Assembly (NCBI RefSeq): GCF_009649955.1
Contig: NZ_CP045875.1
Location: 595,059 to 619,058, forward strand
DNA: 24,000 nt
From: Heliorestis convoluta
GTDB taxonomy: Bacteria > Bacillota > Desulfitobacteriia > Heliobacteriales > Heliobacteriaceae
Direction of reading: 5' to 3'
A program made the translations under genes and the position numbers. Each line of letters starts with the position of its first letter. Within the stretch, counting starts at the first letter, position 1. This document shows positions 5,837 to 23,691 of the stretch, piece after piece. The notes under the pieces are model-generated. The model had not been told where the DNA came from, did no database searches, and was given only the letters and a program-made list of their open reading frames with translations.

Positions 5837-7003
5837 TCATGCTTTTCTTTTCCAAATCGCCATTTCTCCTATCGGTAGATAAAGATAAACTTGCGCTCCT
5901 TCTTGGTAGATTTCTTCAACCAATGGATCTATTCCTTTAGAAGTTTGTACTTGTAAGTCATAATTATTGGAAGACACTTTACCTGAAGGAGAATGGTCTC
6001 TCACCAGACCTGCAAAAGGATAAGAATCGTTACAGCAGTTTTGAATCTTTAAAAATAGAGTTTGACCATCAGGACCTAAGATATTTTGAAGAACTGTCGC
6101 TCCAAAAGCATTGTCCCACTCTTTTTCTTGATACTCTCTTTTTGTAAGCAAGCGCACTTTGGAAGGGCGAATGCCAATGGAAACATGATTGCTTGTAAAG
6201 TCTGGCTTGGGAATTTTCAAGTTACAATGATAAGCAGGGATGTAGGCAATGGCATGGTCATCCTTTCGCTCTAAAATTTGTCCATCGAAAATGTTCTTTG
6301 TCCCTACAAAGCGAGCTACAGTACGATTTATCGGGCCATGAACGATTTGATCACGACTTCCAAATTGTAAGATTCGACCATTCTCCATGACTGCGATATG
6401 ACTACAAAGGCGATAGACTTCTTCTAAACTATGTGACACCAGTATCATGGTTCCGGAAAAAGCGTTTTTTACTTCGAGCACTTCTTGTTCTAGCTTGTTT
6501 TTCACTTGACTATCGAGGGCGGAGAAAGGCTCATCTAGTAACAACAAGGCTGGATCGGTCACTAAGGTGCGAGCTAAGGCCACGCGCTGTTGTTGTCCCC
6601 CAGACAACTGAGAAGGGTAGCGTTTTTCTAAGCCTTGTAGGCGCATTCGCTCTAACATATACTGGGCTTTTTTCTTCTGTTCTTGAGCCGGTAAATGCTT
6701 GAGGCCAAAAGTTATGTTTTTTTCTACTGTAAGATGAGGAAAAAGAGCATAGTTTTGAAATAGAAAGCCTACTTTTCTCTTCCGAGCAGCGATAGAAATC
6801 TTCTTATTGCTATCGAAGTAAACTTGATCATCCATTGTAATAGAACCTTCATCGGGTTCAACAAGACCGGCTAGACAACGCAAGGTAATACTTTTTCCAC
6901 AACCGGATGGTCCAAAAAGACCGAGTACAGCGCCCTGGGGTATTTGAAATTGCAGTTGCAATGAAAAAGAAGGCAGCCTTTTCTTTAGATGGGCCTGTAT
7001 CAT
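5837..7003 (-). CDS. modC: molybdate-type ABC transporter ATP-binding protein with a long C-terminal TOBE-like region
   Basis: 388 aa. Walker A GPSGCGKS, signature LSGGQQQR, Walker B LLLLDEPFSALD. It overlaps modB by 4 nt (7000-7003). Confidence 0.75.
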   Translation of the reverse strand: MIQAHLKKRLPSFSLQLQFQIPQGAVLGLFGPSGCGKSITLRCLAGLVEPDEGSITMDDQVYFDSNKKISIAARKRKVGFLFQNYALFPHLTVEKNITFGLKHLPAQEQKKKAQYMLERMRLQGLEKRYPSQLSGGQQQRVALARTLVTDPALLLLDEPFSALDSQVKNKLEQEVLEVKNAFSGTMILVSHSLEEVYRLCSHIAVMENGRILQFGSRDQIVHGPINRTVARFVGTKNIFDGQILERKDDHAIAYIPAYHCNLKIPKPDFTSNHVSIGIRPSKVRLLTKREYQEKEWDNAFGATVLQNILGPDGQTLFLKIQNCCNDSYPFAGLVRDHSPSGKVSSNNYDLQVQTSKGIDPLVEEIYQEGAQVYLYLPIGEMAIWKRKA

Positions 7004-7674
7004 GAAGAATCCCTCCAGTCTTTTCGATGTAATAGGTTGATGACAATCAGAACCATAAATGCTGTTGCAGTCATAATCAAGACAAGCAAGTTGGCTTTTT
7101 CTTGTTCTCCTGCTAGCATAGAGTTATAGATAGCGATGGGCATGGTCATGGTGACACCAGGAATGCTACCGGCTACCATCAAAGTAGTTCCAAAGTCACC
7201 AAGAGCTCTAGCAAACATGAGGACAAGTCCAGCCACGATGCCGCGCCAGGCATTGGGGATAATCACATAGAAAAAAATTTCAAATTCATTGCGACCAAGT
7301 ACGCGAGCTGCATCGAGTAAATCCTTCGATACACCTTCTATAGCCGCTCGCGATGTTTTTATGAAAAATGGAATGGAAACAAGGGTCGCTGCAATAATCA
7401 CACCGCGAATGGTAAAGACCAGGGGCAAGCCTAAGGATTCAAAAAATTGACCGATCACACTGTTGCGACCGACGAGTACGAGTAGATAATAACCCAGCAC
7501 GGTAGGTGGTAAAATCATCGGTAGCGTGAGCAGGGAGTCGAACACTTCGACCCAGCGCCTTTTTGACTGGCCAAGCCACCAGGCAATCGGTAAGCCTACA
7601 ACAAAGCCAATGACAGTAGCAATAAAGGCGACTTGAAAAGAAAGAATGAGTGGAAATAAATCGATATGTTCCAT
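7000..7674 (-). CDS. modB: molybdate ABC transporter permease
   Basis: 224 aa, the typical ModB size, with a MalFG-type EAA loop (AARVLGRNEFEIFFYVIIP). It is flanked by modA and modC. Confidence 0.8.
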   Translation of the reverse strand: MEHIDLFPLILSFQVAFIATVIGFVVGLPIAWWLGQSKRRWVEVFDSLLTLPMILPPTVLGYYLLVLVGRNSVIGQFFESLGLPLVFTIRGVIIAATLVSIPFFIKTSRAAIEGVSKDLLDAARVLGRNEFEIFFYVIIPNAWRGIVAGLVLMFARALGDFGTTLMVAGSIPGVTMTMPIAIYNSMLAGEQEKANLLVLIMTATAFMVLIVINLLHRKDWRDSS

Positions 7675-7726
7675 TTTCTATCCTCTCCTTTCTCCAGCCC
7701 GCTTGCACTATTTTTCTTAGCTTTTA

Positions 7727-8575
7727 TTAATCTTCAGGTAGAACAAAGCCGTACTTGTTCATAATTTGCTGTCCTTTTTCACTTAACAGGTAGTCAACAA
7801 AAGCCCGTGCCTTCTCTTCTTGCTTTGTTGACTTGACCACCGTTATGGCCTGGTTGAGGGGGTTGTGCCAGTTATCGTCGATGAGGGTAAAGTTTAGCTG
7901 TTCTGAATCATGGATAGAAAGAGCAATAATAGCAGCGTCTACGTTGCCTGTTTGTAACAAGACGAGTGTATCTTGAATGTTTCTACCGTAGACAAGCTTG
8001 CCTTGCAGGTCCTCCCAAAGGCCACGATGTTGCAATGCTTCTTGAGCAGCCGTCCCATAAGGCGCATGGGATGGGTCAGCGATAGCTACTTTGTGAATTC
8101 GTTGATCCTCTATGAGCTCTTCTAGGCTCTCGATTGTTACCCCCTGCTTTTTCATTGTGGCGATACCAATACGTCCTTGGGCATAAAGTTTTTGGGTATC
8201 TTCTATGGTGAGACCTTGTTGTCGTAAACGCTCGACAAAGGCCACATTGGCAGCGGCAAAAACATCATAGTGAGCACCATTTTCTATCTGCATGGCATAG
8301 GTACCTGTAGAGCCAAAGGACAACTCTGCGACAATACCTTGTTCTTCTTCAAATTGTTGGGTCAATTCTTGAAAAGCTCTCGTTAGATCAGCAGCTGCTG
8401 CAATATGAAGTTTTTCTCTTTGATGTACAGAAGCCATTGTTGTTTCTACTGAACTTGCCTCTTTAGAAGCTCCACAGCCCGTTAGAAGCGTTGCTGCGAC
8501 AATAAGTAAAGCCAACCAAAGTAGGAGATTCTGATCGTTCCTATTGTTCCACTCTTTTTTTCTAGATCTTTTCAT
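7727..8575 (-). CDS. modA: molybdate (or tungstate) ABC transporter substrate-binding lipoprotein
   Basis: The ORF track extends to a TTG at 8617, but ATG 8575 (MKRSRKK...) has RBS agagaggaaaagg upstream. It gives a signal peptide ending in the lipobox LLTGC. ModA-like blocks are present: AAAADLTRAF, FGSTG, QIENGAHYDVFAAAN. Confidence 0.8.
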   Translation of the reverse strand: MKRSRKKEWNNRNDQNLLLWLALLIVAATLLTGCGASKEASSVETTMASVHQREKLHIAAAADLTRAFQELTQQFEEEQGIVAELSFGSTGTYAMQIENGAHYDVFAAANVAFVERLRQQGLTIEDTQKLYAQGRIGIATMKKQGVTIESLEELIEDQRIHKVAIADPSHAPYGTAAQEALQHRGLWEDLQGKLVYGRNIQDTLVLLQTGNVDAAIIALSIHDSEQLNFTLIDDNWHNPLNQAITVVKSTKQEEKARAFVDYLLSEKGQQIMNKYGFVLPED

Positions 8576-8608
8576 ATCCTTTTCCTCTCTTTCCCTATAA
8601 ATGCTTTG

Positions 8609-8661
8609 AAAAAACAAAAAGACGGCAACACAAAAGGAAAGTTTCCCTTTGTGTAACCGTC
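8609..8661 (-). terminator. strong intrinsic terminator in the arsR-modA spacer (ars terminator and/or modA leader attenuator)
   Basis: The minus-strand RNA reads GACGGUUACACAAAGGG-AAACUUU-CCUUUUGUGUUGCCGUC followed by UUUUUGUUUUUU. On the minus strand 16 of 17 positions pair, including two G-U wobbles, against 14 of 17 on the plus strand. That indicates function in the minus transcript. Confidence 0.7.
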
Positions 8662-8713
8662 TTTGGTTCGAGCAGTCGCCAGTGACTGCAAATCAATCAT
8701 CATCTTACATGCA

Positions 8714-10353: not shown

Positions 10354-10776
10354 CTACTGTGCTGCTATAGTCTTATTTGTAATTTTTTTAGCAAGAATCT
10401 TTATATTTTCTTCTACCTTTTTAATAATAATTCTGAATTCATCATCACTTTTTCCGGATGGATCATCTAAGCCCCAATCTTCTTCATATTGACTCGGGAG
10501 AAATGGACAAGTCACATTGCAACCCATTTTAATAACGATATCGACTTTTGGAATTTCTGTTAACAATTTAGGGCGCTGTGATTCTTCCATATCAATGGCA
10601 TAAATTTCTTTCATCAATCGAAGGGCATCTTGATTGATCTGTGCTTTCATTTCTGTACCGGCAGAATAACTTTCGAATACATGGCCAGCCAAATGCTTGC
10701 CCAAGGCTTCTGCGATTTGACTTCGGCAGGAATTATGAACACAGATAAATGCTACTTTAGGCTTTTGACTGCTCAT
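10354..10776 (-). CDS. arsC: arsenate reductase, thioredoxin-coupled LMW-PTPase type
   Basis: The start is moved to ATG 10776 (MSSQKPKVAFICVHNSCRSQIAEA), which has RBS gggagg 7 nt upstream. It carries the CX5R P-loop (CVHNSCRS) and downstream Cys residues (MGCNVTCP). Confidence 0.85.
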   Translation of the reverse strand: MSSQKPKVAFICVHNSCRSQIAEALGKHLAGHVFESYSAGTEMKAQINQDALRLMKEIYAIDMEESQRPKLLTEIPKVDIVIKMGCNVTCPFLPSQYEEDWGLDDPSGKSDDEFRIIIKKVEENIKILAKKITNKTIAAQ

Positions 10777-10839
10777 CCTTATACCTCCCAATTTTAATAT
10801 CGATGATGTCGGTTATATGGGATCGCTACCTCAATATAT

Positions 10840-12120: not shown

Positions 12121-12504
12121 TTATTTTTGCGCTACTACATAGAAAACCACAGAAAAAAGAAAAAGTGAGCCAAAAAGTGAAAGGCTTATATATTGCAGAA
12201 AAAGCCTATACAACTTCCGCTCCAACAAATCGAGGGCTTCTACTGAGAAAGTTGAATAGGTTGTGAAAGCGCCAAAAAAACCGACAGCAACTGCGAGATA
12301 GAGCCCATCCTGATAGATTGTCAAAGGGTAATCGGTATAATAAAGGGAAAGAAAAAGAGCTAGACCGACTGAGCCAATTACGTTGATGATAACCATAGGC
12401 AGAGGGATGGCATCTTTTTTTTGAAATTGTAATAGATAGATCCCCAATGCGTATCTTGAGGCAGCGCCTAGGGCGCCTCCTAAGCTGAGCAAAAGTAAAT
12501 TCAT
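12121..12504 (-). CDS. crcB: fluoride channel Fluc/CrcB, second paralog
   Basis: 127 aa with 4 TM segments. GGALGAASRY and GFFGAFTTYSTF motifs are present. Confidence 0.85.
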   Translation of the reverse strand: MNLLLLSLGGALGAASRYALGIYLLQFQKKDAIPLPMVIINVIGSVGLALFLSLYYTDYPLTIYQDGLYLAVAVGFFGAFTTYSTFSVEALDLLERKLYRLFLQYISLSLFGSLFLFSVVFYVVAQK

Positions 12505-12577
12505 AAGTTTGCTTCTCTTTCAAGTTTTTTGTTCGATTCTACAGATCAAGCTTTTTCCCTATCCTTGTATGTGTACG

Positions 12578-12991
12578 TTATTCCTGTGAGAATTCCATGC
12601 TTTTTTTGTCATTCTTTTTCTCAAGCCCTGTACGGACAATATAAAACCCTGCAAAAGCGCTGCCCAAACCACCGACTACTGTGACGATACCATAGAGTAG
12701 GGCTAGAAAGGGCTGATTGATTACAAGCAGGAGATAGGTATCGGCAGCGAAAGTAGACATGGTTGTAAAGCCACCGCAAAAACCAACGCCAGCACTTAAG
12801 CGCAGCCATTCTCGTTTCCCATACAAAATAAATAGGGCTGATAATAGACCCAGCAAGAAGCTTCCTATAATATTCTCTATTAGAGTGCCGATGGGATAGC
12901 CTGTCGGAAGGGCCAAAAGATTGACAGTGTAACGAAGTAAGGTCCCGAGGGCGCCTCCGATTGCTACAAGCAGTAGGTTTGTTACTATCAT
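12578..12991 (-). CDS. crcB: fluoride channel Fluc/CrcB, first paralog
   Basis: 137 aa. GGALGTLLRY and GFCGGFTTMSTF motifs are present. Tandem crcB pairs are the classical heterodimeric Fluc arrangement. Confidence 0.85.
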   Translation of the reverse strand: MIVTNLLLVAIGGALGTLLRYTVNLLALPTGYPIGTLIENIIGSFLLGLLSALFILYGKREWLRLSAGVGFCGGFTTMSTFAADTYLLLVINQPFLALLYGIVTVVGGLGSAFAGFYIVRTGLEKKNDKKSMEFSQE

Positions 12992-16086: not shown

Positions 16087-16866
16087 ATGTTAAACGCTTG
16101 TGTAGCCCATCGGGGTTGGTCCGGATTGGCTCCCGAAAATACATTGGCTGCCATCAAATTGGCTGTAGAAGATGGGCTGATCGAGATGATTGAGATCGAC
16201 GTTCAACTGTCAAAAGACGGCATCCCTGTTGTTATTCATGATTTTACTTTAGATAGAACAACGAATGGAACAGGACACGTAAAAGATACAATGCTATGCG
16301 AACTGGTCACATACGATGCAGGAAGCTGGTTTGCACCTGCATTTGCCGGTGAGAAGATTCCTACATTGGAAGAAGTATTGTGCTTGGTAAAAGGGAGAAA
16401 GAAACTAAATATTGAGCTAAAGCAAGTGGGCGAGCTCTATCCCTTTATGGAAATGAAGGTCTTACAATTGATTCAAGAATTTGATCTTCAAGACGAGGTG
16501 GTAGTAACCTCTTTTGATCAACAGTGTCTTCAAAAAGTAAAAGCCACCGCGCCTGAGATAGCGGTGGGTCTTATCGTTGGGAGACCGCCTGTAACGATTG
16601 AACAATTACAGGCATTGGGTGCCAAATTCCTCGCAATTGACTATTCTTATATCACAAAGTCAATGGTTCAAGAGTTTTTTGATCAAGGCATAGATATCAT
16701 GGCATGGACTATCAATGATAAAGAGTCTATGAAAAAAATTATGAATTTACATCCATTTATCCGAATTTGCACGAATCATCCCGAGGTATGGAAGTGTGCG
16801 ATCAAAGAGGGTGGCATGGAAGGTGGCATGGGGACGTTTCGTTTGGCATCTCAAACTCAGAAATAG
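16087..16866 (+). CDS. glycerophosphodiester phosphodiesterase (GDPD family)
   Basis: 259 aa. HRG...APENT, EIDVQLSKDGIPVVIHDFTLDRTTNG and a C-terminal ICTNHPE are typical of GlpQ/UgpQ-type enzymes. RBS gaggtga sits upstream of ATG 16087. Confidence 0.8.
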   Translation: MLNACVAHRGWSGLAPENTLAAIKLAVEDGLIEMIEIDVQLSKDGIPVVIHDFTLDRTTNGTGHVKDTMLCELVTYDAGSWFAPAFAGEKIPTLEEVLCLVKGRKKLNIELKQVGELYPFMEMKVLQLIQEFDLQDEVVVTSFDQQCLQKVKATAPEIAVGLIVGRPPVTIEQLQALGAKFLAIDYSYITKSMVQEFFDQGIDIMAWTINDKESMKKIMNLHPFIRICTNHPEVWKCAIKEGGMEGGMGTFRLASQTQK

Positions 16867-16885
16867 AGCCCATGGCACTAACGTG

Positions 16886-17028
16886 GGATCGTCTAAGCCC
16901 CAATCTTCTTCATATTGACTGGGAAGATTGGGGCAAATTACATTGCAACCCATTTTAATTACGATATCGAATTTGGGGATTTCTGTTAACAGTTTAGGAT
17001 GCTGCGTTTCTTCCATATCGAATTGCAT
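16886..17028 (-). pseudogene. arsC: internal fragment (fossil) of a second arsC gene
   Basis: Positions 16886-17019 align without gaps to the intact arsC at 10460-10593, with 18 mismatches in 134 nt by hand count. The translation DMEETQHPKLLTEIPKFDIVIKMGCNVICPNLPSQYEEDWGLDDP matches arsC residues of about 62-106. The CX5R N-terminus and the C-terminus are missing. Confidence 0.8.
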
Positions 17029-17051
17029 ACTATGAGGCTCAGCAAGGGATA

Positions 17052-17080
17052 TTGACTTTTGTTAATTCTTATCCTAAGAT
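17052..17080 (+). promoter_or_regulatory. sigma-A-like promoter upstream of the four-gene module
   Basis: TTGACT (17052-17057), 17-nt spacer, TAAGAT (17075-17080). Confidence 0.5.
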
Positions 17081-17130
17081 TGAATTAATCAATACGAGGT
17101 TAGAAGATCACGGTGATGCTATAGGCTCGA

Positions 17131-17176
17131 AGGCGAGTAAAGTTCTTTGATAAGGACTTTTCTCGCCTATTTTTTT
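17131..17176 (+). terminator. terminator-like hairpin between that promoter and the first gene of the module
   Basis: aggcgag-t-aaagt-tctttgataagg-acttt-t-ctcgcct gives 7+5 bp with a T/T mismatch, followed by attttttt. It lies 70 nt upstream of the TTG start at 17246. Confidence 0.5.
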
Positions 17177-17245
17177 AAGAGGTATGGTGATAAGAGTAGG
17201 CTCTTTCTTTCCATGTTACTGCAAAAATATGAGAGGTGAGTTGTT

Positions 17246-18241
17246 TTGTTAGATTTTGATGGGAATTATGGACAATTAAATCTGCTGGCATTATTGCCTT
17301 GTCCAGTTAAGGTGCCCTTTGAACGGATTTTTAACGAACCTGCAACGAGCTGGAGCGATCGGGTAGGAATGCCCTTGCGATATGAACTAGTTAGTAATGC
17401 CAATCAGTATCAGGAGTTATACACTTACTTAGATAGCTGTCACAGGAAGGAAGATTTTCCTGATATGCTACTATCGTCTGGTTTTAATAGATTTTATCGT
17501 CGCTCTTTTATTGAGAAGTTTAAGTATGCTGGAATATGGTCAGCCATAGAGCGTCCTAAAGTAAATCGGAGCATGGAAGCAGCAGTTGTGTTTGATCCTG
17601 ATCAGCAGTACACGTTACTGGCAATCAACCCAGCCGTACTGGTGGTAGACTTGCAGCGCTGGGGAGACAATGCTTTGCCTCGCAACTTTGGAGACGTCCT
17701 GGCTCCCCGTTGCCGTGGTCGGGTAGTGTTTCGAGGTCACAAAGACGACTATTGTGAAGGCGTGCTATTGCGAATATACAAAGAGTATGGCATAAATGGC
17801 ATTAAGCTTCTGGCCCAAGCCACACCCAAGGGCATGCATCCAGCAGAAATGGCTAAGATTATGGGCAATGGTCAAGCAGAGGGACCTGTTGTAGCAATTA
17901 TGCCCCTGTTCTTTGCCAAAATGATTCCTAAGCAGGACCGGGTGGCGATTATTTGGCCCGACGATGGAGCCTTGGCCAACCCTGTTACGATATTGATTAA
18001 AAAGGAAGCTCAGATTGATCATCAAGAGATAGTGGATTTTTTTGCAGGGCAAGAATTGTCTCAGCTCTTGGCATCTGTGCAAATGATACCTGGTTTTGCT
18101 CAGAGTCAAGCTACTGGAGAAGATAGGAAACTTTATTGGATCGGCTGGGATTTTATAAATTCCCATGATTTAGGGCAGGTAGTACCCTGGTTAACCGATG
18201 CTTTTATCAAAACCCAGCGGGAGCAGTTCCTATGCAGTTGA
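17246..18241 (+). CDS. cytoplasmic periplasmic-binding-protein-fold (type II SBP-like) protein without signal peptide
   Basis: 331 aa, TTG start with RBS aggtga 6 nt upstream. There is no N-terminal hydrophobic segment or lipobox, unlike ModA in this window. The C-terminal block IWPDDGALANPVTILIKKEAQ...IVDFFAGQELSQLLAS resembles the conserved end of Fe3+/molybdate-type solute-binding proteins. This is recognition-level only. Confidence 0.5.
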   Translation: MLDFDGNYGQLNLLALLPCPVKVPFERIFNEPATSWSDRVGMPLRYELVSNANQYQELYTYLDSCHRKEDFPDMLLSSGFNRFYRRSFIEKFKYAGIWSAIERPKVNRSMEAAVVFDPDQQYTLLAINPAVLVVDLQRWGDNALPRNFGDVLAPRCRGRVVFRGHKDDYCEGVLLRIYKEYGINGIKLLAQATPKGMHPAEMAKIMGNGQAEGPVVAIMPLFFAKMIPKQDRVAIIWPDDGALANPVTILIKKEAQIDHQEIVDFFAGQELSQLLASVQMIPGFAQSQATGEDRKLYWIGWDFINSHDLGQVVPWLTDAFIKTQREQFLCS

Positions 18242-18918
18242 TCACAGTGGCTGGCCCTCCCTCTTCCGGCAAGACGGCAGTAATAATCAATGTGATTGCT
18301 GCTCTACATAGAAAAGGTCGTAAGGTTGGCGTAATTAAGATGGACTGTCTGCAAGCCCAAGATCAGGAAGAATATAAAAAGCGAAGTATTCCAGTTCAAG
18401 TAGGCCTATCAGGCAATCTCTGTCCTGATCATTTTTTCGTCAGCAATATTCAGGCCTGTGTCGATTGGGGTATAGAGCAAAAGCTAGACATGCTGATTAG
18501 TGAAAGTGCGGGACTCTGTAATCGGTGCTCTCCCCACATCAAGGGCATCACGGCTCTATGCGTAATTGACAATTTAATGGGAGTAAATACGCCCAAAAAA
18601 ATTGGACCCATGCTTAAGCTGGCCGATTATGTGATTGTCACCAAAGGTGATGTAGTATCCCAAGCAGAGAGAGAAATATTTGCCTTTCGTATCCGTCAAG
18701 CGAATCCCAAAGCAATCATTATGTTTGTCAATGGGATAACAGGACAAGGTGCTCCTGAGCTAGCAAGTTTATTGCAAAAAGCTGAGCCCATCTCAAGCTT
18801 GGATCAACGTCGGCTGCGTTTTTCCATGCCGGCAGCATTATGCTCCTACTGCTTGGGAGAAACTCGAATCGGTAAGGATTATCAAATGGGCAATAATCGG
18901 CTGATGAAGTTTGAGTAG
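18232..18918 (+). CDS. G3E-family P-loop GTPase, HypB/UreG-like metallochaperone
   Basis: 228 aa. Walker A GPPSSGKT. IKMDCLQAQDQEEY is comparable to the UreG ..NDI.T.ED.. block. A CPDH motif sits at the position of the UreG CPH / HypB CH metal site. Further matches are ESAGLCNRCSP (like E..GNL.CP), a P.K.GP.L..AD block, and TKGD in place of NKxD. The start overlaps the upstream stop by 10 nt. Confidence 0.7.
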   Translation: MQLITVAGPPSSGKTAVIINVIAALHRKGRKVGVIKMDCLQAQDQEEYKKRSIPVQVGLSGNLCPDHFFVSNIQACVDWGIEQKLDMLISESAGLCNRCSPHIKGITALCVIDNLMGVNTPKKIGPMLKLADYVIVTKGDVVSQAEREIFAFRIRQANPKAIIMFVNGITGQGAPELASLLQKAEPISSLDQRRLRFSMPAALCSYCLGETRIGKDYQMGNNRLMKFE

Positions 18919-18935
18919 AGGAAAGGATTATTGAT

Positions 18936-19946
18936 ATGGACAGCCAACATAAGCAATGGTTAAATATGCCCTATAACCAGCTGCGACAGCAATATCCTTA
19001 CGCTGATCAGTTTTTTCAAACAATGGGCCTTTCCATACTGGAAGGTAGCCACTGTGTAGAGGACTATGTAAGTAAACTAGCACCCCAGGTGTTAGAGGAC
19101 ATTGGCATAGAGCGAAGCCAGTTGGGTCATGCTTTTATATCTTTTCTTGAGAATATGAATCAATTACAACAAGAGGATAAGCAAATTATTGAAAGTGTTA
19201 CCATTTTGGGTGGTACAGATAAAGAAGGACGCAAAGAGAATTTACATTTAACCTTACGTCCTGGAGACATTGTTGCCATCGTTGGACCTACTGGTTCGGG
19301 AAAAAGCAGGCTATTGGCAGATATTGAGTGGATGGCCCAGGGTGATACGCCAACGGGCCGTCAAGTCTTGATTAACGGAAAAGCACCTGAACCAGAAAAG
19401 CGTTTTGCTGTGGAGAGCAAATTGGTTGCTCAACTATCGCAAAACATGAATTTTGTGATGGATCTATCAGTAGCAGAATTCATTTCTTTACATGCAGAAA
19501 GCAGGCTTAACAGACGAGATGATATCATAGAAAAAGTGTTAGAACAGGCGAACAAATTGGCAGGGGAACCTTTTACTGCAGATACCCCGCTCACTTCTTT
19601 GAGCGGGGGACAGTCTAGAGCCCTCATGATAGCAGATACAGCTTTGTTAAGTCGTTCCCCCATTGTTTTAATTGATGAAATTGAAAATGCAGGCGTTGAT
19701 CGACAAGAGGCATTGCAGGTTTTAGTAGGTCAAGACAAAATAGTACTCATGGCGACCCACGATCCGATACTAGCTTTAATGGCCCAGCGGCGGCTGATCA
19801 TTGAAAAGGGTTCTGTTAAACAGGTGATAGAAACAACTGATGAAGAGCAAAAAACTCTCCAAGAGCTGCTTCATTGGGATCAAAAACTGATGGCCTATCG
19901 CAACCATCTGCGCAAGGGCAAGAAATTGCTTGCATTCCATGATTAA
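18936..19946 (+). CDS. soluble ABC-type ATPase with an extra N-terminal domain of about 100 aa and no cognate permease
   Basis: 336 aa. Walker A GPTGSGKS, signature LSGGQSRA, Walker B VLIDEIENAGVD, H-loop ATHD. No TM segments. It starts 17 nt after the GTPase gene. Confidence 0.75.
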   Translation: MDSQHKQWLNMPYNQLRQQYPYADQFFQTMGLSILEGSHCVEDYVSKLAPQVLEDIGIERSQLGHAFISFLENMNQLQQEDKQIIESVTILGGTDKEGRKENLHLTLRPGDIVAIVGPTGSGKSRLLADIEWMAQGDTPTGRQVLINGKAPEPEKRFAVESKLVAQLSQNMNFVMDLSVAEFISLHAESRLNRRDDIIEKVLEQANKLAGEPFTADTPLTSLSGGQSRALMIADTALLSRSPIVLIDEIENAGVDRQEALQVLVGQDKIVLMATHDPILALMAQRRLIIEKGSVKQVIETTDEEQKTLQELLHWDQKLMAYRNHLRKGKKLLAFHD

Positions 19947-20031
19947 TTTAATGGGCTATGAACATTTGCTATCCTAGTAGGGTATAATGGAATTTATCAT
20001 AGTATAGGAAAGCAGATGAGGGGAAAATGCC

Positions 20032-21297
20032 ATGGCACACCTAACAGTCCGCTCGGGATACAAAAAACTGGAAGAAAGACTGAATCTTTTCCCCCAGGGT
20101 GCACCGCCTTCGGAAAGTCTTTATAAGATTTTATCTCTTCTTTTTCGAGAAAATGAAGCCAATCTCGTGTCACAATTGCCCATCCGACCTTTTACCGTGA
20201 AAAAAGCCGCTTCCATCTGGAAAAAGAGTGAAGCAGAAGCGCACAAGATTTTAGATGATTTGGCCAGTCGGGCTCTGCTGCTTGATATAGAACAAGAAGG
20301 TAGGCAACACTATGTCTTGCCACCACCCATGGCAGGCTTTTTTGAATTTGCTTTTATGCGAATACGGGGCGATCTGGATCAAAAGCTTTTAAGCGAGCTT
20401 TTTCATCAATATATCAATGTGGAAGAGGACTTTATTAAGGATCTTTTTCTCGGCAGCGAGACACGACTGGGTCGTGTTTTTGTGCAAGAAGCGGTCTTAA
20501 GCAATGACAATGCTCTTCATATTCTTGATTATGAACGCGCCAGCCATGTGATCGAGTCTGCAAAAACCATTGCTGTCGGTCTATGCTACTGTCGCCACAA
20601 AATGGAGCATTTAGGGCAGAATTGTTCTGCGCCTATGAACAATTGTATGACCTTTGGCAATACTGCTTCTTCTCTGATTAAGCATGGACATGCTAGAGCT
20701 ATCTATTCATCGGAAGGATTGGAACTTCTTGCGGAAGCTTATGCGCACAATCTTGTGCAATGTGGGGAAAATGTACGAGAAGATGTAAGTTTTCTTTGCA
20801 ATTGTTGTGGTTGTTGCTGTGAAGGCTTAATTGCTGTGCGTAAGTTTGGCCTGCTTCAACCAATACATACGACAAATTATCTTCCTACTGTTAATGAAAA
20901 GGCTTGCAACGGTTGTGGCCGCTGTGCAAAAGCTTGTCCCATTGAAGCGATTCAAATGACCTCTCACCCATCAGAGAAAGTTAAAAAAGCAAAAATCGAT
21001 GAGACCCTTTGTCTTGGTTGTGCTGTTTGTATTCGTCTTTGTCCTCTAAAGTGCCTTTCTCTGAAAGAGCGACCTCAGCGGATTATTACGCCCGTTAACT
21101 CAGCCCATCGGATCGTATTAGCCGCTCTTGAACGAGGTAGATTGCAGAATCTGATCTTCGATAACCAGGCTTTACAAAGTCACCGGGCAATGGCCGCTAT
21201 TTTGTCAGCCATTTTGCAGCTTCCTCCTGTAAAGCGCTTGATGGCCAAGGAGCAGTTGCGATCTCGTTATTTGGAACGGTTGCTTAAAGGAACTTAA
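20032..21297 (+). CDS. Cys-rich Fe-S protein: two ferredoxin-type 4Fe-4S motifs plus additional Cys clusters
   Basis: 421 aa. It contains CNGCGRCAKACP and CLGCAVCIRLCP (CxxCxxCxxxCP twice). Upstream are CYCRHKMEHLGQNCSAPMNNC and CNCCGCCCEG. The N-terminal region of about 170 aa is soluble. RBS gagggga sits upstream of the ATG. Confidence 0.7.
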   Translation: MAHLTVRSGYKKLEERLNLFPQGAPPSESLYKILSLLFRENEANLVSQLPIRPFTVKKAASIWKKSEAEAHKILDDLASRALLLDIEQEGRQHYVLPPPMAGFFEFAFMRIRGDLDQKLLSELFHQYINVEEDFIKDLFLGSETRLGRVFVQEAVLSNDNALHILDYERASHVIESAKTIAVGLCYCRHKMEHLGQNCSAPMNNCMTFGNTASSLIKHGHARAIYSSEGLELLAEAYAHNLVQCGENVREDVSFLCNCCGCCCEGLIAVRKFGLLQPIHTTNYLPTVNEKACNGCGRCAKACPIEAIQMTSHPSEKVKKAKIDETLCLGCAVCIRLCPLKCLSLKERPQRIITPVNSAHRIVLAALERGRLQNLIFDNQALQSHRAMAAILSAILQLPPVKRLMAKEQLRSRYLERLLKGT

Positions 21298-21429
21298 AGT
21301 AATCAAACCAGCCATCAGGTTGAATCAGTCTAACCCAGATCCGCTTTCAACGTACTTCGTCAATTTAGAAAGAGCTCTAACGGCTGGCGCACCGTCAATA
21401 ACATGCTTGCCCCCTTTTTCTTCCGAACC

Positions 21430-22292
21430 TTAATAAACCTCCGCCTTGTTATATTCTATCTCTTCTACTTCAAGCAAGTACCAGGTGTAGTCTCCTGCAT
21501 CAAGTTTCCAGGTGATTTCCGCTTGAAGGGGTACTTTGAATCGATCCATCCATTGATGTTCTTTCATGCGAATGGACCAGGGTTGCATAATGAATTCTCC
21601 ATCAAAGTCACCGTAACGGTCAGCTAGAAAATGTATTGCATTCCCTTCATCATCAAAAGTAAAGACACCGGATGCAGACACGCTTGATAGGTCATCGTTG
21701 CCAAAGCAGAATTCTCATCGATTTCTTGCCAAGCAATGTATTCTTCCAACGCAGCCGTTGGCACCCAGACAATTTCTGCTAAGTAGCGAACCAAGGAACC
21801 TTGATCCATTTCATAACCTTTTGCATCGGCTATATTGAAGAAAGATTGGAATTTAATCAACATATGACCTTTTCCTTCATGGTATCTATCTCTACCGACA
21901 ATATGTATAAAAGGGGCAACCTTAAACTTGGCGGTCCAAAGAAAGCCTGGCTTATCAATGGTAAAGTATTGTTGCGCTTCTAAGGGCATCCAGTTATCCT
22001 TGTCTTGATCAAGCCGAACAAGAGCACTTTGTCGGGAACGAGCTGTATGAACTGGCTCAGTATTGATCACACCGGTTGTTCTTAACCATTTTTTCACAGG
22101 TTCAGGCAAGTGTTCTACCTCTTCGGCTTGAATTGTAGTTGCTTCGCTATGTTTTTGGGTCTCTAAAAATTCAACAATTTCCTTATGAACCTTTTGGTTG
22201 AAAGTTGCATTTGCGATGGCTGAAAAAGCGAGTACAATCACAAAAATGCCCATGATTACGCCAAAGCCGATGATTCCTATTCTTTTCATCAT
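21430..22292 (-). pseudogene. membrane-anchored protein of unknown function, apparently split by a frameshift
   Basis: Two same-strand ORFs (22292-21624 and 21681-21430) overlap by 58 nt. The downstream one begins at a GTG with no RBS. The upstream one has an N-terminal TM anchor (IGIIGFGVIMGIFVIVLAF). Joined, they would give a single protein of about 290 aa. Confidence 0.5.
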
Positions 22293-22597: not shown

Positions 22598-23539
22598 TTA
22601 AACGATAAGCTTCTTGGCCTCTTTAACTGTTCCTACTCTATATATGCTGTCTAAAATTTTATTCAATTTCTCTAGATCCGTTATACCTCTTACTTCTTTT
22701 TGGAGATCTATAGATCCTGTCCCAAACCTAGCTTCAAGATATTTGCATATAGACTCCTGCAAACCTTCTGACTTACCTTCTACTCGGCCTTCTACGCGAC
22801 CTTCTGCCCGGCCTTCTTCTCGGCCCTCTTCTCTGATCCATTGTTCGATTTTCGTCATTTTGAGCACCTCCAGTATGCGCTTTTTTACTTCATCAGGTAG
22901 AATTCGATCGGTTATGGCCACGATACAGGCTACTGTGAAAGCTTGTAATACTTCGCTTTCAATTTGTTTGGCCAATTCTACGGCTTCTACAGCGAGTGCT
23001 GCTTCATCTTTCTTCTGGCTAAACATCATTGGTAAAAAGATCAGTTTCTGCATATCTAAATCGTCTAGCTTCTCACCACGTTCTATTTTTTCCTTTAATA
23101 TCCTTAGTTCTTCGTCACCGTTAAAATCACTCATAAATACGTTAGAGACTTGATAGTTAAGGGATCCCATAACAAGCCTTTCCGGTGCTCTGTTAATCTT
23201 TCCTGCGTAGACCACAGCTGTATGAACTGGCAAGGCATGTCGTTCTACAATGCGAGCTCCGTAGTAAGCAAATCTTCTCAGCTCATCATCCGGTATGGTT
23301 GTCTGAAATTCCAGGTGTAACAGTGTATTGTCTGCAAGCTTGAAAACAAAATCTATACGCTTTTCTTTGGCTTCTACGACAGGCAAGGCTGTTGGCAGCA
23401 TTTCTACGACTGGTGCTACATCTATCCCTAATACTTCTAGGCTTTTTCCTTTGAATGTCTCGGCTACGGCTTTAAGAACTATGTCTTTAGACTGCCAGGC
23501 TATCTCTGTTTCTTGTGTTGAATTCTCAATCTTCGTCAT
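22598..23539 (-). mobile_element. Rpn/YhgA-family PD-(D/E)XK nuclease ('putative transposase')
   Basis: RIDFVFKLADNTLLHLEFQT is the hallmark D...(E)FQ core of the Rpn family. The C-terminal EQWIREEGREEGRAEGRVEGRVEGKSEG repeat tail is typical of the family. The start is chosen at ATG 23539 because a candidate promoter lies inside the longer ORF. The alternative start is 23605. Confidence 0.7.
22764..22835 (-). repeat. in-frame tandem repeat, six 12-nt units, inside the rpn-like gene
   Basis: ccttctgactta / ccttctactcgg / ccttctacgcga / ccttctgcccgg / ccttcttctcgg / ccctcttctctg encode REEG-REEG-RAEG-RVEG-RVEG-KSEG on the minus strand. Confidence 0.85.
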
Positions 23540-23566
23540 GATCGGAGGAATCAATCCCTTTCTTTC

Positions 23567-23595
23567 ATTGTAGCATATCCTATTTTCCTTTGCAG
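23567..23595 (-). promoter_or_regulatory. candidate promoter of the rpn-like gene
   Basis: Minus strand: CTGCAA (23595-23590), 17-nt spacer, extended -10 TG-c-TACAAT (23575-23567). Confidence 0.4.
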
Positions 23596-23691
23596 GGCTC
23601 CACATTTTGTTCTTTTATTCTAGTTTATTTCAACTGTTTCCTTCAATTTTTGATGATTTTTTACAGTTACTTTTCTGTGATAATACCGATG

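What the first reader, a model, noticed from the sequence alone, without database searches (positions are those of the whole stretch)
17246..21297. Fully soluble four-gene module: signal-less SBP-fold protein, HypB/UreG-like GTPase, permease-less ABC ATPase and Cys-rich polyferredoxin (candidate undescribed system)
All four genes are co-oriented and tightly packed. The first two overlap by 10 nt (18232-18241), the next gap is 17 nt and the last is 85 nt. The parts look like a transporter and a metallochaperone, but the module has no membrane component. None of the four proteins has a hydrophobic segment, and the binding-protein homolog lacks a signal peptide or lipobox. ModA in the same window has a clear one. 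G3E GTPases normally sit beside their client enzymes (urease, hydrogenase, nitrile hydratase, methylmalonyl-CoA mutase), and none is present here. The neighbours are instead an ABC-type ATPase and a protein with at least two 4Fe-4S sites plus a CNCCGCCC cluster. One reading is a cytoplasmic machine that binds a metal, oxyanion or cofactor precursor on the SBP fold. It would then use GTP and ATP hydrolysis to load or remodel a redox-active centre on the Fe-S protein. This is inference, and I do not recognise the combination as any characterised pathway. The module is flanked by an arsC fossil on one side. On the other side are repeats, a frameshifted gene and an Rpn nuclease, which suggests accessory, horizontally moved DNA.
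Basis: partly seen in the sequence, partly recalled or inferred. Interest (0 to 1): 0.8.

Follow-up and report, generated by a model that had tools for sequence, protein, structure and literature searches.

The report
Molybdenum-linked cytoplasmic GTPase/ATPase/binding-protein trio
Three of the four genes form a widely conserved, membrane-free, uncharacterised module (binding-protein fold, UreG/HypB-like GTPase, soluble ABC ATPase) that other genomes place beside and under the control of molybdenum systems, so it is probably a new energy-driven molybdenum/tungsten handling system; the fourth gene, the iron-sulfur protein, is only a chance neighbour.

Summary
The four ORFs exist exactly as described in this Heliorestis convoluta window. 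All lack membrane segments and signal peptides. The unit is three genes, not four.

- **Conserved triad.** SBP_bac_6-fold protein, G3E GTPase and ABC ATPase recur together in 77 of 83 loci. These span Desulfobacterota, Bacillota, Planctomycetota, Dehalococcoidia, Fusobacteriota and Methanospirillum. In Clostridium the GTPase and ATPase are fused.
- **Gene 4 is separate.** The 421-aa Fe-S protein is next to the triad in none of the other loci. It stands alone in the sister species H. acidaminivorans. It also has the best promoter-like site of the region in front of it.
- **The context is molybdenum.** 39 of 83 loci carry modABC, modE, modD, a TunR-like regulator, moeA, AOR or nif/anf genes within 9 kb. 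A Syntrophomonas MAG has Moco riboswitches before both of its triads. ModE-box palindromes (CGTTAT-N12-ATAACG) precede triad operons in nine Desulfuromonadales-type loci.
- **The proteins are distinctive.** The GTPase keeps the UreG Cys-Pro-His site (as CPDH) plus six more invariant Cys, and fails the HypB, UreG and MeaB cut-offs. The binding protein has an FbpA-like fold but lacks the iron-binding tyrosines and has invariant Cys19, Cys170 and His198.
- **No description found.** Ten literature searches found nothing on it.

Best reading: an NTP-driven cytoplasmic Mo/W allocation system. All evidence is computational.

The parts
17246..18241 (+). Cytoplasmic binding-protein-fold protein (331 aa, SBP_bac_6; short form without the N-terminal DUF1858 domain that many orthologs carry)
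   Evidence: Pfam PF13343, E 3e-60, with no NCBIfam model. AF2 model has pLDDT 89; the best folds are FutA/FbpA, TM 0.6-0.67 at 11-15% identity. FbpA Tyr195/Tyr196 align to L221/F222. Invariant residues are C19, N51, R163, G164, C170, H198, P199, W298 and W301. No signal peptide. The family has 275 representative clusters at E<=1e-30.
18232..18918 (+). G3E P-loop GTPase of a distinct, very conserved subfamily (228 aa); overlaps the upstream gene by 10 nt
   Evidence: PF02492 at 43.6 bits (cut-off 20.7). HypB 42 bits against 121, UreG 30 against 204, MeaB 20 against 241. hhalign to UreG gives 97% probability: Walker A G8-T15, C64-P65-D66-H67 on UreG Cys-Pro-His, E91-x-x-G94, T137-K-G-D140. Foldseek top hits are UreG 4hi0 and HypB 2hf8. 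Orthologs are 65-73% identical across phyla. Seven Cys are invariant: C64, C76, C96, C99, C110, C204, C207.
18936..19946 (+). Soluble ABC ATPase (336 aa): DUF1858-like N-terminal domain (about 18936-19220) followed by a complete nucleotide-binding domain; no permease partner
   Evidence: PF00005 on residues 101-248, with no specific NCBIfam or PDB subfamily. Walker A, Q-loop block VAQLSQNMNFVMDL, LSGGQ, Walker B and the H-loop are conserved in 61 orthologs. The N-domain against the DUF1858 domains of long SBP orthologs gives hhalign 89.6%, E 1.9e-6. Fused to the GTPase in Clostridium.
20032..21297 (+). Neighbouring 421-aa Fe-S protein; NOT part of the module (independent, widely conserved orphan gene)
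   Evidence: More than 8000 homologs at 62-68% identity in Clostridia. Not next to the triad in 82 other loci. Stands alone in Desulfotomaculum defluvii, Heliorestis acidaminivorans and Clostridium sp. CX1.
19959..19988 (+). Promoter-like site (TGAACA-18-TATAAT, 10/12) in the 85-nt gap, consistent with separate transcription of the Fe-S gene
   Evidence: Best match in 16800-21700. The number of such sites in the region is not above chance, so this is weak evidence.
17131..17177 (+). Strong hairpin plus U-run about 70 nt upstream of the triad start: terminator of the upstream unit or a leader attenuator
   Evidence: Fold of 17085-17250 gives -44.9 kcal/mol, z -2.7. No Rfam family matches here.
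5837..8617 (-). modCBA molybdate importer, 8.6 kb from the triad (context, not part of the operon)
   Evidence: modA TIGR01256 at 186 bits (cut-off 62.5); modB TIGR02141 at 232 bits (cut-off 183).

Best explanation
Genes 1-3 are one conserved cytoplasmic machine that handles molybdenum (or tungsten) when it is scarce.

Shown:
- The three genes travel together, often with overlapping reading frames, across bacteria and one archaeal genus. The GTPase and ATPase can be one polypeptide.
- The module sits beside, and in some lineages under the same regulators as, molybdate uptake, Moco synthesis and nitrogenase genes.

Inferred mechanism:
- The binding-protein fold captures the metal species in its cleft. 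The cleft carries an invariant Arg/Asn/His set suited to an oxyanion, plus two invariant thiols.
- The ABC ATPase dimer, docking through its DUF1858-like domain, uses ATP-driven closure to open or close that clamshell. This is what transporter ATPases do through their permeases.
- The cargo passes to the Cys-Pro-x-His and poly-Cys sites of the G3E GTPase dimer. GTP hydrolysis then releases it to clients such as MoeA/Moco synthesis or FeMo-cofactor assembly.

Functionally it would be to molybdenum what Zur-regulated COG0523 GTPases are to zinc. The Fe-S gene downstream is unrelated.
For: Conservation:
- The complete triad is in 77 of 83 loci; 5 of the 6 exceptions are cut by contig ends. There are 7 GTPase-ATPase fusions.
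- It was seen again in Alkaliphilus, Propionivibrio and Fusobacterium.

Context:
- An unbiased clustering of neighbours ranks ModC, ModA, ModB and ModE first.
- 39 of 83 loci hold modABC, modE, modD, a TunR-like regulator, moeA, AOR or nif/anf genes within 9 kb. Chance expectation is of the order of 1%.
- The triad lies directly upstream of modE-modD-modABC in Trichlorobacter and Geobacter. In Clostridium it lies between modABC and a TunR-like regulator plus anfO-nifH.

Regulation:
- Two P3-containing Moco riboswitches (85 and 78 bits) precede both triads of a Syntrophomonas MAG (P3 rule from PMC2408646).
- CGTTAT-N12-ATAACG gives 59 hits against 15 in shuffles. It lies before modE, modD, modA and nifH, and before triad operons in 9 loci.

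Chemistry:
- The G3E motifs are intact, with the UreG metal site and seven invariant Cys.
- The SBP has lost the FbpA tyrosines and gained invariant Cys/Cys/His.
- The ABC catalytic motifs are intact.
- H. convoluta is a diazotroph with a separate hypABCDEF (PMC7143216).
Against: - No ligand is known, and nothing here shows Mo or W binding.
- Cys/His ligands are unlike ModA, WtpA or TupA oxyanion sites.
- The fold is closest to ferric-binding proteins.
- About half of the loci show no Mo gene within 9 kb.
- In Fusobacterium vincentii the neighbour is a ZnuA-type cation importer.
- In several Bacillota a FecCD/Peripla_BP_2 importer is co-operonic. Similar riboswitch-controlled operons in Eubacterium limosum were read as iron transporters (PMC11725836).
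- In the Heliorestis window no riboswitch or ModE box is found, and modABC is 8.6 kb away, not adjacent.
- The roles assigned to ATP and GTP are inference only.
Confidence: 0.55

Rival explanations
1. The triad traffics iron (Fe2+ or a nascent Fe-S unit), not Mo. It would be co-regulated with Mo/W status because nitrogenase, MoaA and tungsto-/molybdoenzymes are iron-hungry. The FbpA-like protein would hold iron. The poly-Cys GTPase and a SufC-like ATPase would hand it on.
For: Best structural matches are FutA/FbpA ferric-binding proteins. DUF1858 appears in papers on Fe-S maturation. FecCD/Peripla_BP_2 importers and a ZnuA-type importer are neighbours. Tuco-riboswitch-controlled 'Fe ABC-type' operons in E. 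limosum are interpreted as iron uptake (PMC11725836). SufC is a precedent for a soluble ABC ATPase in Fe-S assembly (PMC9164220).
Against: The FbpA iron-binding tyrosines are replaced by Leu/Phe. No Fur, Feo or ferritin family appears among recurrent neighbours, while Mod genes dominate. ModE boxes and Moco riboswitches are molybdenum-specific signals. In Desulfuromonadales the triad is embedded beside modE-modABC.
Confidence: 0.2
2. The triad is the cytoplasmic accessory of a chelate importer (FecCD, ATPase, Peripla_BP_2 lipoproteins). It would receive the imported complex at the inner face and strip or process it. The Heliorestis copy would be an orphaned remnant.
For: FecCD, an ABC ATPase, Peripla_BP_2 and a methyltransferase are adjacent in about 10 loci. 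They are co-operonic behind one riboswitch in L017. The Peripla_BP_2 proteins are true lipoproteins. DUF364 and radical-SAM genes recur nearby.
Against: Most loci (about 70 of 83), including whole clades, have the triad without any FecCD system. The three proteins are under strong purifying selection in those genomes too. This does not conflict with a Mo role and may be a sub-case of it.
Confidence: 0.1
3. The GTPase is simply a divergent HypB, UreG or CobW nickel/cobalt/zinc chaperone serving hydrogenase, urease, B12 or zinc enzymes. The Mo neighbourhood would be incidental.
For: Sources label it 'Ni2+-binding GTPase involved in maturation of urease and hydrogenase'. The UreG-type Cys-Pro-His site is retained. 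CbiMQO lies in the same window. A cobalamin riboswitch follows the triad in L080.
Against: Scores are far below the HypB, UreG and MeaB cut-offs. There is no CxCC motif or CobW_C domain. H. convoluta has a separate hypABCDEF, and its genome paper does not mention urease. No hydrogenase, urease or cob genes are among recurrent neighbours.
Confidence: 0.07
4. One reading: a four-gene machine in which the SBP, GTPase and ATPase load or remodel a redox centre on the adjacent Cys-rich Fe-S protein.
For: The genes are co-oriented and only 85 nt apart in this genome. No terminator was detected between them.
Against: The Fe-S gene is never adjacent in 82 other triad loci. The Fe-S family is far larger than the triad family and stands alone in 3 of 3 genomes checked, including the sister species at 87% identity. 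The best promoter-like site of the region lies in the gap.
Confidence: 0.03

Closest known systems
UreG / HypB (G3E GTPases that insert Ni into urease and [NiFe]-hydrogenase)
   Same: Same fold (Foldseek TM 0.6-0.69). Walker A, ExxG and (N/T)KxD motifs are present. The Cys-Pro-(x)-His metal site lies between Walker A and B. It presumably dimerises and switches on GTP.
   Different: Only 18-21% identity, and far below the curated cut-offs. It has six further invariant Cys and a unique C-terminal CxxC tail. Its partners are an SBP-fold protein and an ABC ATPase instead of UreEFD or HypA. The context is Mo, not Ni.
Zur-regulated COG0523 GTPases (ZigA, ZagA, YeiR; CobW)
   Same: A G3E GTPase placed under the regulator of one metal's scarcity response, thought to allocate that metal. 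This is the best functional analogy (family knowledge from PMC11672702).
   Different: No CxCC motif and no CobW_C domain. The regulators are ModE and the Moco riboswitch rather than Zur. It always comes with two obligatory partner proteins.
FbpA / FutA ferric-binding proteins of ABC importers (SBP_bac_6)
   Same: Same class II clamshell fold and the same Pfam family.
   Different: It is cytoplasmic. The Tyr-Tyr iron ligands are lost. It has invariant Cys19/Cys170/His198. It often carries an N-terminal DUF1858 domain. It has no cognate permease.
SufC of SufBC2D (soluble ABC ATPase in Fe-S cluster assembly)
   Same: A transporter-type nucleotide-binding domain working without a membrane permease in metallocofactor biogenesis (PMC9164220).
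   Different: No specific sequence relationship was detected among the best 25 NCBIfam matches shown. It carries a DUF1858-like N-domain. It partners a GTPase and an SBP fold rather than SufB/SufD.
Known molybdenum handling proteins: ModA/ModE-Mop molbindins, MosAB storage protein, NifQ
   Same: Same cellular problem, and the same neighbourhoods and regulators.
   Different: No sequence relationship. ModA is SBP_bac_11 and exported, Mop is a TOBE fold, MosAB is an amino-acid-kinase fold, and NifQ is a Cys-rich Mo-Fe-S protein. None uses a GTPase or an ABC ATPase partner (own knowledge for the last three).

Membership tests
G3E P-loop GTPase superfamily (PF02492) | Walker A GxxxxGK[ST] | tested here: met
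   G8-PPSSGK-T15; G8, G13, K14 and T15 are invariant.
G3E P-loop GTPase superfamily (PF02492) | Glu in the Walker B/G3 motif (ExxG) | tested here: met
   E91-S-A-G94 is invariant and aligns with UreG ESGG.
G3E P-loop GTPase superfamily (PF02492) | NKxD guanine-specificity motif | tested here: met
   Present as the variant T137-K138-G139-D140, aligned to UreG NKID. K138 and D140 are invariant.
G3E P-loop GTPase superfamily (PF02492) | Cys/His metal site between Walker A and B | tested here: met
   C64-P65-D66-H67 aligns with UreG C66-P67-H68.
HypB (TIGR00073) | Score above the curated cut-off; sits with hyp genes | tested here: not met
   42.2 bits against 121.2. hypABCDEF is elsewhere in the genome (PMC7143216).
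UreG (TIGR00101) | Score above the curated cut-off; sits with ureDEF | tested here: not met
   29.6 bits against 204.2. No ure genes were seen in any locus.
COG0523 / CobW | CxCC motif and C-terminal CobW_C domain | tested here: not met
   No CobW_C hit. The sequence has CPDH and CNRC, not CxCC.
ABC-importer substrate-binding protein (SBP_bac_6 / FbpA type) | Class II clamshell fold | tested here: met
   PF13343 at 204 bits; Foldseek FutA/FbpA.
ABC-importer substrate-binding protein (SBP_bac_6 / FbpA type) | Export signal (signal peptide or lipobox) | tested here: not met
   Maximum hydropathy 1.25. The protein starts 12 aa before strand 1. Long orthologs carry a DUF1858 domain instead.
ABC-importer substrate-binding protein (SBP_bac_6 / FbpA type) | FbpA iron ligands (His, Glu, Tyr-Tyr) | tested here: not met
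   Tyr195/Tyr196 align to L221/F222.
ABC-importer substrate-binding protein (SBP_bac_6 / FbpA type) | Cognate permease in the operon | tested here: not met
   None in the window. FecCD neighbours elsewhere have their own ATPase and lipoprotein SBPs.
ABC ATPase (PF00005) | Walker A, Q-loop, LSGGQ signature, Walker B-Glu, H-loop | tested here: met
   GPTGSGKS, VAQLSQ, LSGGQ, LIDEIE and ATHD are all conserved in 61 orthologs.
ABC transporter (membrane transport system) | Transmembrane domain partner | tested here: not met
   No hydrophobic segment in any triad protein. The triad occurs without a permease in most loci.
Molybdate-binding proteins (ModA, TIGR01256 / SBP_bac_11) | Family HMM match | tested here: not met
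   Gene 1 matches only SBP_bac_6 and has no NCBIfam hit. The true ModA is at 7727-8617.
Mo-responsive regulon (ModE / Moco riboswitch) | Operator or riboswitch upstream of the operon | tested here: inconclusive
   Met in relatives: Moco riboswitches in L017 and ModE boxes in 9 Desulfuromonadales-type loci. Not found in the Heliorestis window.
Mo/W-binding function | Direct binding of molybdate, tungstate or a thio-derivative | not testable with these tools
   Needs protein biochemistry.
Polyferredoxin (gene 4) | Many tandem 2x[4Fe-4S] domains | tested here: not met
   One dicluster domain (residues 285-345) plus two non-canonical Cys motifs.

The most novel reading that the evidence does not exclude
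This would be the first nucleotide-driven molybdenum/tungsten metallochaperone system. It would comprise a fifth G3E GTPase family, working with a cytoplasmic clamshell protein and a permease-less ABC ATPase, induced by Mo/Moco scarcity. It would deliver Mo to Moco and FeMo-cofactor synthesis in anaerobes, many of which may lack NifQ or MosAB.
Probability: 0.45. Interest if true: 0.85.

Novelty: new variant of a known kind. Interest (0 to 1): 0.72.

Why it matters
How molybdate travels from the ModABC importer to MoeA (Moco) or to the nitrogenase cofactor assembly line is an open gap. Ni, Zn, Co and Fe have NTPase chaperones; Mo has none known.

Recent reviews list only UreG, HypB, MeaB and COG0523 as G3E families (PMC11672702). 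A conserved, strongly constrained triad with Mo-specific regulation gives that question a concrete, testable candidate.

It would also show a second way to use ABC ATPase and binding-protein parts without a membrane. It may matter for Mo-limited nitrogen fixation in anoxic, sulfidic habitats and for engineering nitrogenase.

Tried and rejected
- **Four-gene module:** rejected on neighbourhood data.
- **HypB, UreG, MeaB or CobW membership:** rejected on curated cut-offs and motifs.
- **Ferric-binding function of the SBP:** made unlikely by loss of the Tyr ligands.
- **First ModE-box searches:** a loose TATAT palindrome and a de novo palindrome count were uninformative. The motif only emerged from the ABC-to-modE intergenic regions.
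- **Riboswitch in the Heliorestis window:** none at gathering score or at E<=1. Of 36 relatives' loci scanned, only L017 (two) and L075 (opposite strand) have Moco riboswitches.
- **Shared operator between the window's modA leader and the triad leader:** none found.
- **Plasmid carriage:** one hit only, a 2.1-Mb Fusobacterium replicon.
- **Literature:** ten full-text searches found no description (DUF1858, CobW/modABC/nitrogenase, G3E/molybdenum, TunR, MJ0120/MJ0121, COG1840/COG0378, Moco riboswitch). The ABC ATPase classification paper (PMC7544218) was not available.
- **Structure prediction of the ABC ATPase or of complexes:** not possible, because there are no admissible homolog ids and the tool is single-chain. 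Model coordinates are not exposed, so clustering of the invariant residues in the cleft is inferred from alignment to FbpA, not measured.

Full report
**What is in the window.**
The window is Heliorestis convoluta chromosome: all three proteins queried have 100% matches to that species. The four ORFs lie at the stated coordinates, with a 10-nt overlap and then 17-nt and 85-nt gaps.

Pfam gives the following:
- Gene 1: SBP_bac_6.
- Gene 2: the cobW/HypB/UreG P-loop.
- Gene 3: an ABC nucleotide-binding domain on residues 101-248.
- Gene 4: a single 4Fe-4S dicluster domain.

NCBIfam has no model for gene 1. It gives only sub-threshold HypB, UreG and MeaB matches for gene 2. None of the four proteins has a membrane-like segment, whereas ModA of the same window has a clear signal peptide. 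The descriptive part of the finding is therefore correct.

**The unit is three genes.**
The Fe-S protein belongs to a very large family: more than 8000 homologs, 62-68% identical across Clostridia. In three other genomes it is flanked by unrelated genes. These are Desulfotomaculum defluvii, Clostridium sp. CX1 and the sister species H. acidaminivorans, where the protein is 87% identical.

A pattern scan of one genome per species with an alignment of gene-1 homologs confirmed 136 relatives, and the best 80 loci were fetched. I searched their ORFs with reference proteins taken from the window and from annotated loci.
- The order SBP, GTPase, ATPase (or a rotation of it) is complete in 77 of 83 loci.
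- Five of the six incomplete loci are cut by contig ends.
- In seven Clostridium-type loci the GTPase and ATPase are one roughly 510-aa protein.
- The 421-aa Fe-S protein is adjacent in none of them.

In the window, the best sigma-70-like site of the region lies in the 85-nt gap before the Fe-S gene. This is weak evidence, because the number of such sites is not above chance.

**Distribution.**
The triad occurs in these groups:
- Desulfuromonadales/Geobacterales, Desulfobacterales and Desulfobulbales.
- Many Bacillota: Clostridium, Sporomusa, Acetobacterium, Syntrophomonas, Paenibacillus, Alkaliphilus.
- Dehalococcoidales, a Sedimentisphaerales planctomycete, Propionivibrio and Fusobacterium.
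- The archaeon Methanospirillum.

An exhaustive profile search finds 275 representative clusters at E<=1e-30 for the binding protein. Only 667 hits reach E<=0.001, so it is a small family, sharply separated from ordinary periplasmic SBPs. The GTPase is the most constrained part, at 65-73% identity across phyla. Sources give it only generic names, one of which is 'putative protein MJ0120'.

**The neighbourhood points to molybdenum.**
Clustering all neighbouring ORFs without prior labels puts ModC, ModA, ModB and ModE at the top. They are followed by FecCD/Peripla_BP_2, nitrogenase, a small methyltransferase, ModD and a TunR-like HTH+PBP regulator. Further recurrent families are MoaA, tungsten-type aldehyde:ferredoxin oxidoreductase, NifX-like proteins and NifA-like activators.

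In all, 39 of 83 loci have at least one Mo, W or nitrogenase gene within 9 kb. Chance would give about 1%. Specific arrangements:
- In Trichlorobacter and Geobacter the triad sits directly upstream of modE-modD-modA-modB-modC.
- In Clostridium it lies between modABC and the TunR-like regulator plus anfO-nifH-PII-PII-nifDK.
- In Methanospirillum, Alkaliphilus and Geopsychrobacteraceae it sits beside moeA.
- In the Heliorestis window a genuine modABC is 8.6 kb away.

**Two independent regulatory links.**
First, a Syntrophomonas MAG (L017) has two Moco riboswitches scoring 85 and 78 bits against a gathering score of 36.
- One precedes a divergent second triad plus a methyltransferase.
- The other precedes an operon of ABC ATPase, Peripla_BP_2 lipoprotein, FecCD and the canonical triad.
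- Both contain the short hairpin between P2 and P4, which I take to be the P3 stem. Regulski et al. associate P3 with Moco-sensing rather than Tuco-sensing (PMC2408646).

Second, the intergenic DNA between the triad and modE in Desulfuromonadales revealed the palindrome CGTTAT-N12-ATAACG.
- A scan of all 1.41 Mb held gives 59 hits at up to one mismatch, against 15 in shuffles.
- The N12 hits lie 25-70 nt upstream of modE, modD, modA and nifH.
- They also lie before the triad operon in nine loci. In four the box is directly before the SBP gene. In five it is before a short co-oriented first gene (methyltransferase or ArsC/Spx-family) that runs into it.

I found neither signal in the Heliorestis window. 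There a strong hairpin plus U-run sits about 70 nt upstream of the start.

**The three proteins.**
*GTPase.* It aligns to UreG at 97% hhalign probability. It has Walker A, ExxG and T-K-G-D in place of NKxD. C64-P65-D66-H67 lies on the UreG Cys-Pro-His nickel site.

Its predicted fold is closest to UreG and HypB. It differs by seven invariant cysteines and a unique C-terminal tail carrying an invariant CxxC. H. convoluta has a separate hypABCDEF (PMC7143216), so this is an additional G3E protein.

*Binding protein.* It models confidently (pLDDT 89) as a class II clamshell closest to FutA/FbpA. In the profile alignment, however, the FbpA tyrosines fall on L221/F222. The family's invariant residues are C19, N51, R163, C170 and H198. 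By alignment to FbpA they lie at cleft and anion-site positions. This is inferred, because model coordinates are not exposed. Many orthologs carry an N-terminal DUF1858 domain.

*ATPase.* It has all catalytic motifs and an unusually conserved Q-loop and helical-subdomain block. In transporters that surface meets the permease coupling helix. Its poorly conserved N-terminal 95 residues resemble those same DUF1858 domains (hhalign 89.6%, E 1.9e-6).

**Interpretation.**
The shown facts are a co-inherited, sometimes fused, membrane-free SBP-GTPase-ATPase set, whose genomic and regulatory company is molybdenum uptake, Moco synthesis and nitrogenase. From family knowledge of G3E chaperones and ABC mechanics I infer an NTP-driven relay:
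- capture of the Mo/W species in the clamshell;
- ATP-driven opening or closing by the ABC dimer;
- transfer to the thiolate-rich GTPase;
- GTP-gated delivery to clients.

The closest functional analogy is the Zur-regulated COG0523 zinc chaperones.

**Rivals and counter-evidence.**
The main rival is iron trafficking. Its support is the FbpA-like fold, the FecCD and ZnuA-type neighbours, and the iron reading given to Tuco-riboswitch-controlled 'Fe ABC' operons in E. limosum (PMC11725836). I rank it lower for two reasons: Mod genes dominate the neighbourhood, and the two regulators are molybdenum-specific.

The Peripla_BP_2 neighbours are true lipoproteins with their own permease and ATPase.

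**Novelty.**
No curated model names these proteins. Two recent reviews list only UreG, HypB, MeaB and COG0523 as G3E chaperones. Ten full-text searches found no description. I therefore rate it a new variant of a known kind: an NTPase metallochaperone system with a new GTPase subfamily, new partner types and probably a new metal.

All evidence is computational, and the ligand is unknown.

Noticed in passing
window 20032-21297: The 421-aa Fe-S protein has CYCRHK..C..C at aa 185-205, CNCCGCCC at aa 256-263 and one dicluster domain. It belongs to a very large orphan family (more than 8000 hits, 62-68% identity across Clostridia) with no specific curated model. It is monocistronic in three other genomes.
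   Followed up: partly
window 16747-17028 (-): An arsC remnant, 85% identical over 47 aa to residues 66-112 of the intact arsC at 10354-10791. It is a partial duplicate.
   Followed up: yes
window 17131-17177 (+): A strong 17-bp hairpin with a U-run lies between the GDPD gene and the triad. It is either a terminator or a leader attenuator. The modA leader (about 8617-8700, - strand) shows a similar hairpin plus U-run. No Rfam family matches either.
   Followed up: partly
window 21430-22292 (-): A DUF6544/DUF6920 gene is split into two overlapping ORFs (222 aa and 83 aa), which indicates a frameshift or pseudogene.
   Followed up: no
window 22598-23605 (-): A 335-aa ORF with only a sub-threshold Rpn-family nuclease match (TIGR01784, 29 bits against 52) and a repetitive EGR(A/V)EGR stretch.
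   Followed up: no
L017 2396-5900 and L024 2575-5610: A second, divergent triad (GTPase', ABC' without the N-domain, 297-aa SBP_bac_6') plus a Methyltransf_11 gene. In L017 it is behind its own Moco riboswitch.
   Followed up: partly
L017 5949-8973; also L012, L021, L024, L051, L054, L082, L084, L086, L087: A FecCD, ABC ATPase and Peripla_BP_2-lipoprotein importer often sits next to the triad, frequently with a small methyltransferase, DUF364 and a radical-SAM gene. In L017 it is under a Moco riboswitch. It may be an unrecognised Mo/W-related uptake route. Similar operons in E. limosum were read as iron transporters.
   Followed up: partly
L091 7823-15236 (Fusobacterium vincentii): The triad is followed by DUF6162, two ZnuA-type binding proteins, an ABC ATPase and an ABC-3 permease. 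This is a context without any Mo gene. The record is labelled a plasmid but is 2.1 Mb.
   Followed up: partly
L003, L031, L067 (about 50 nt upstream of the SBP start): A conserved CRP/FNR-like palindrome, TTGTGTTATGCACCTTTCACAA, lies before Trichlorobacter triads.
   Followed up: no
L080 5120-5303; L075 686-812 (-): A cobalamin riboswitch lies immediately downstream of one triad. A Moco riboswitch lies on the opposite strand about 360 nt upstream of another.
   Followed up: no
window 12121-12991; L088 9244-10725: Fluoride-resistance genes lie near the triad in two unrelated genomes: crcB x2 in the window, and a fluoride riboswitch with a CLC gene in Propionivibrio. This is probably coincidence.
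   Followed up: no
L006, L008, L014 (145-aa ORF just upstream of the SBP): An ArsC/Spx-family (PF03960) small protein is the first gene of the triad operon in several Geobacter MAGs, downstream of the ModE box.
   Followed up: partly
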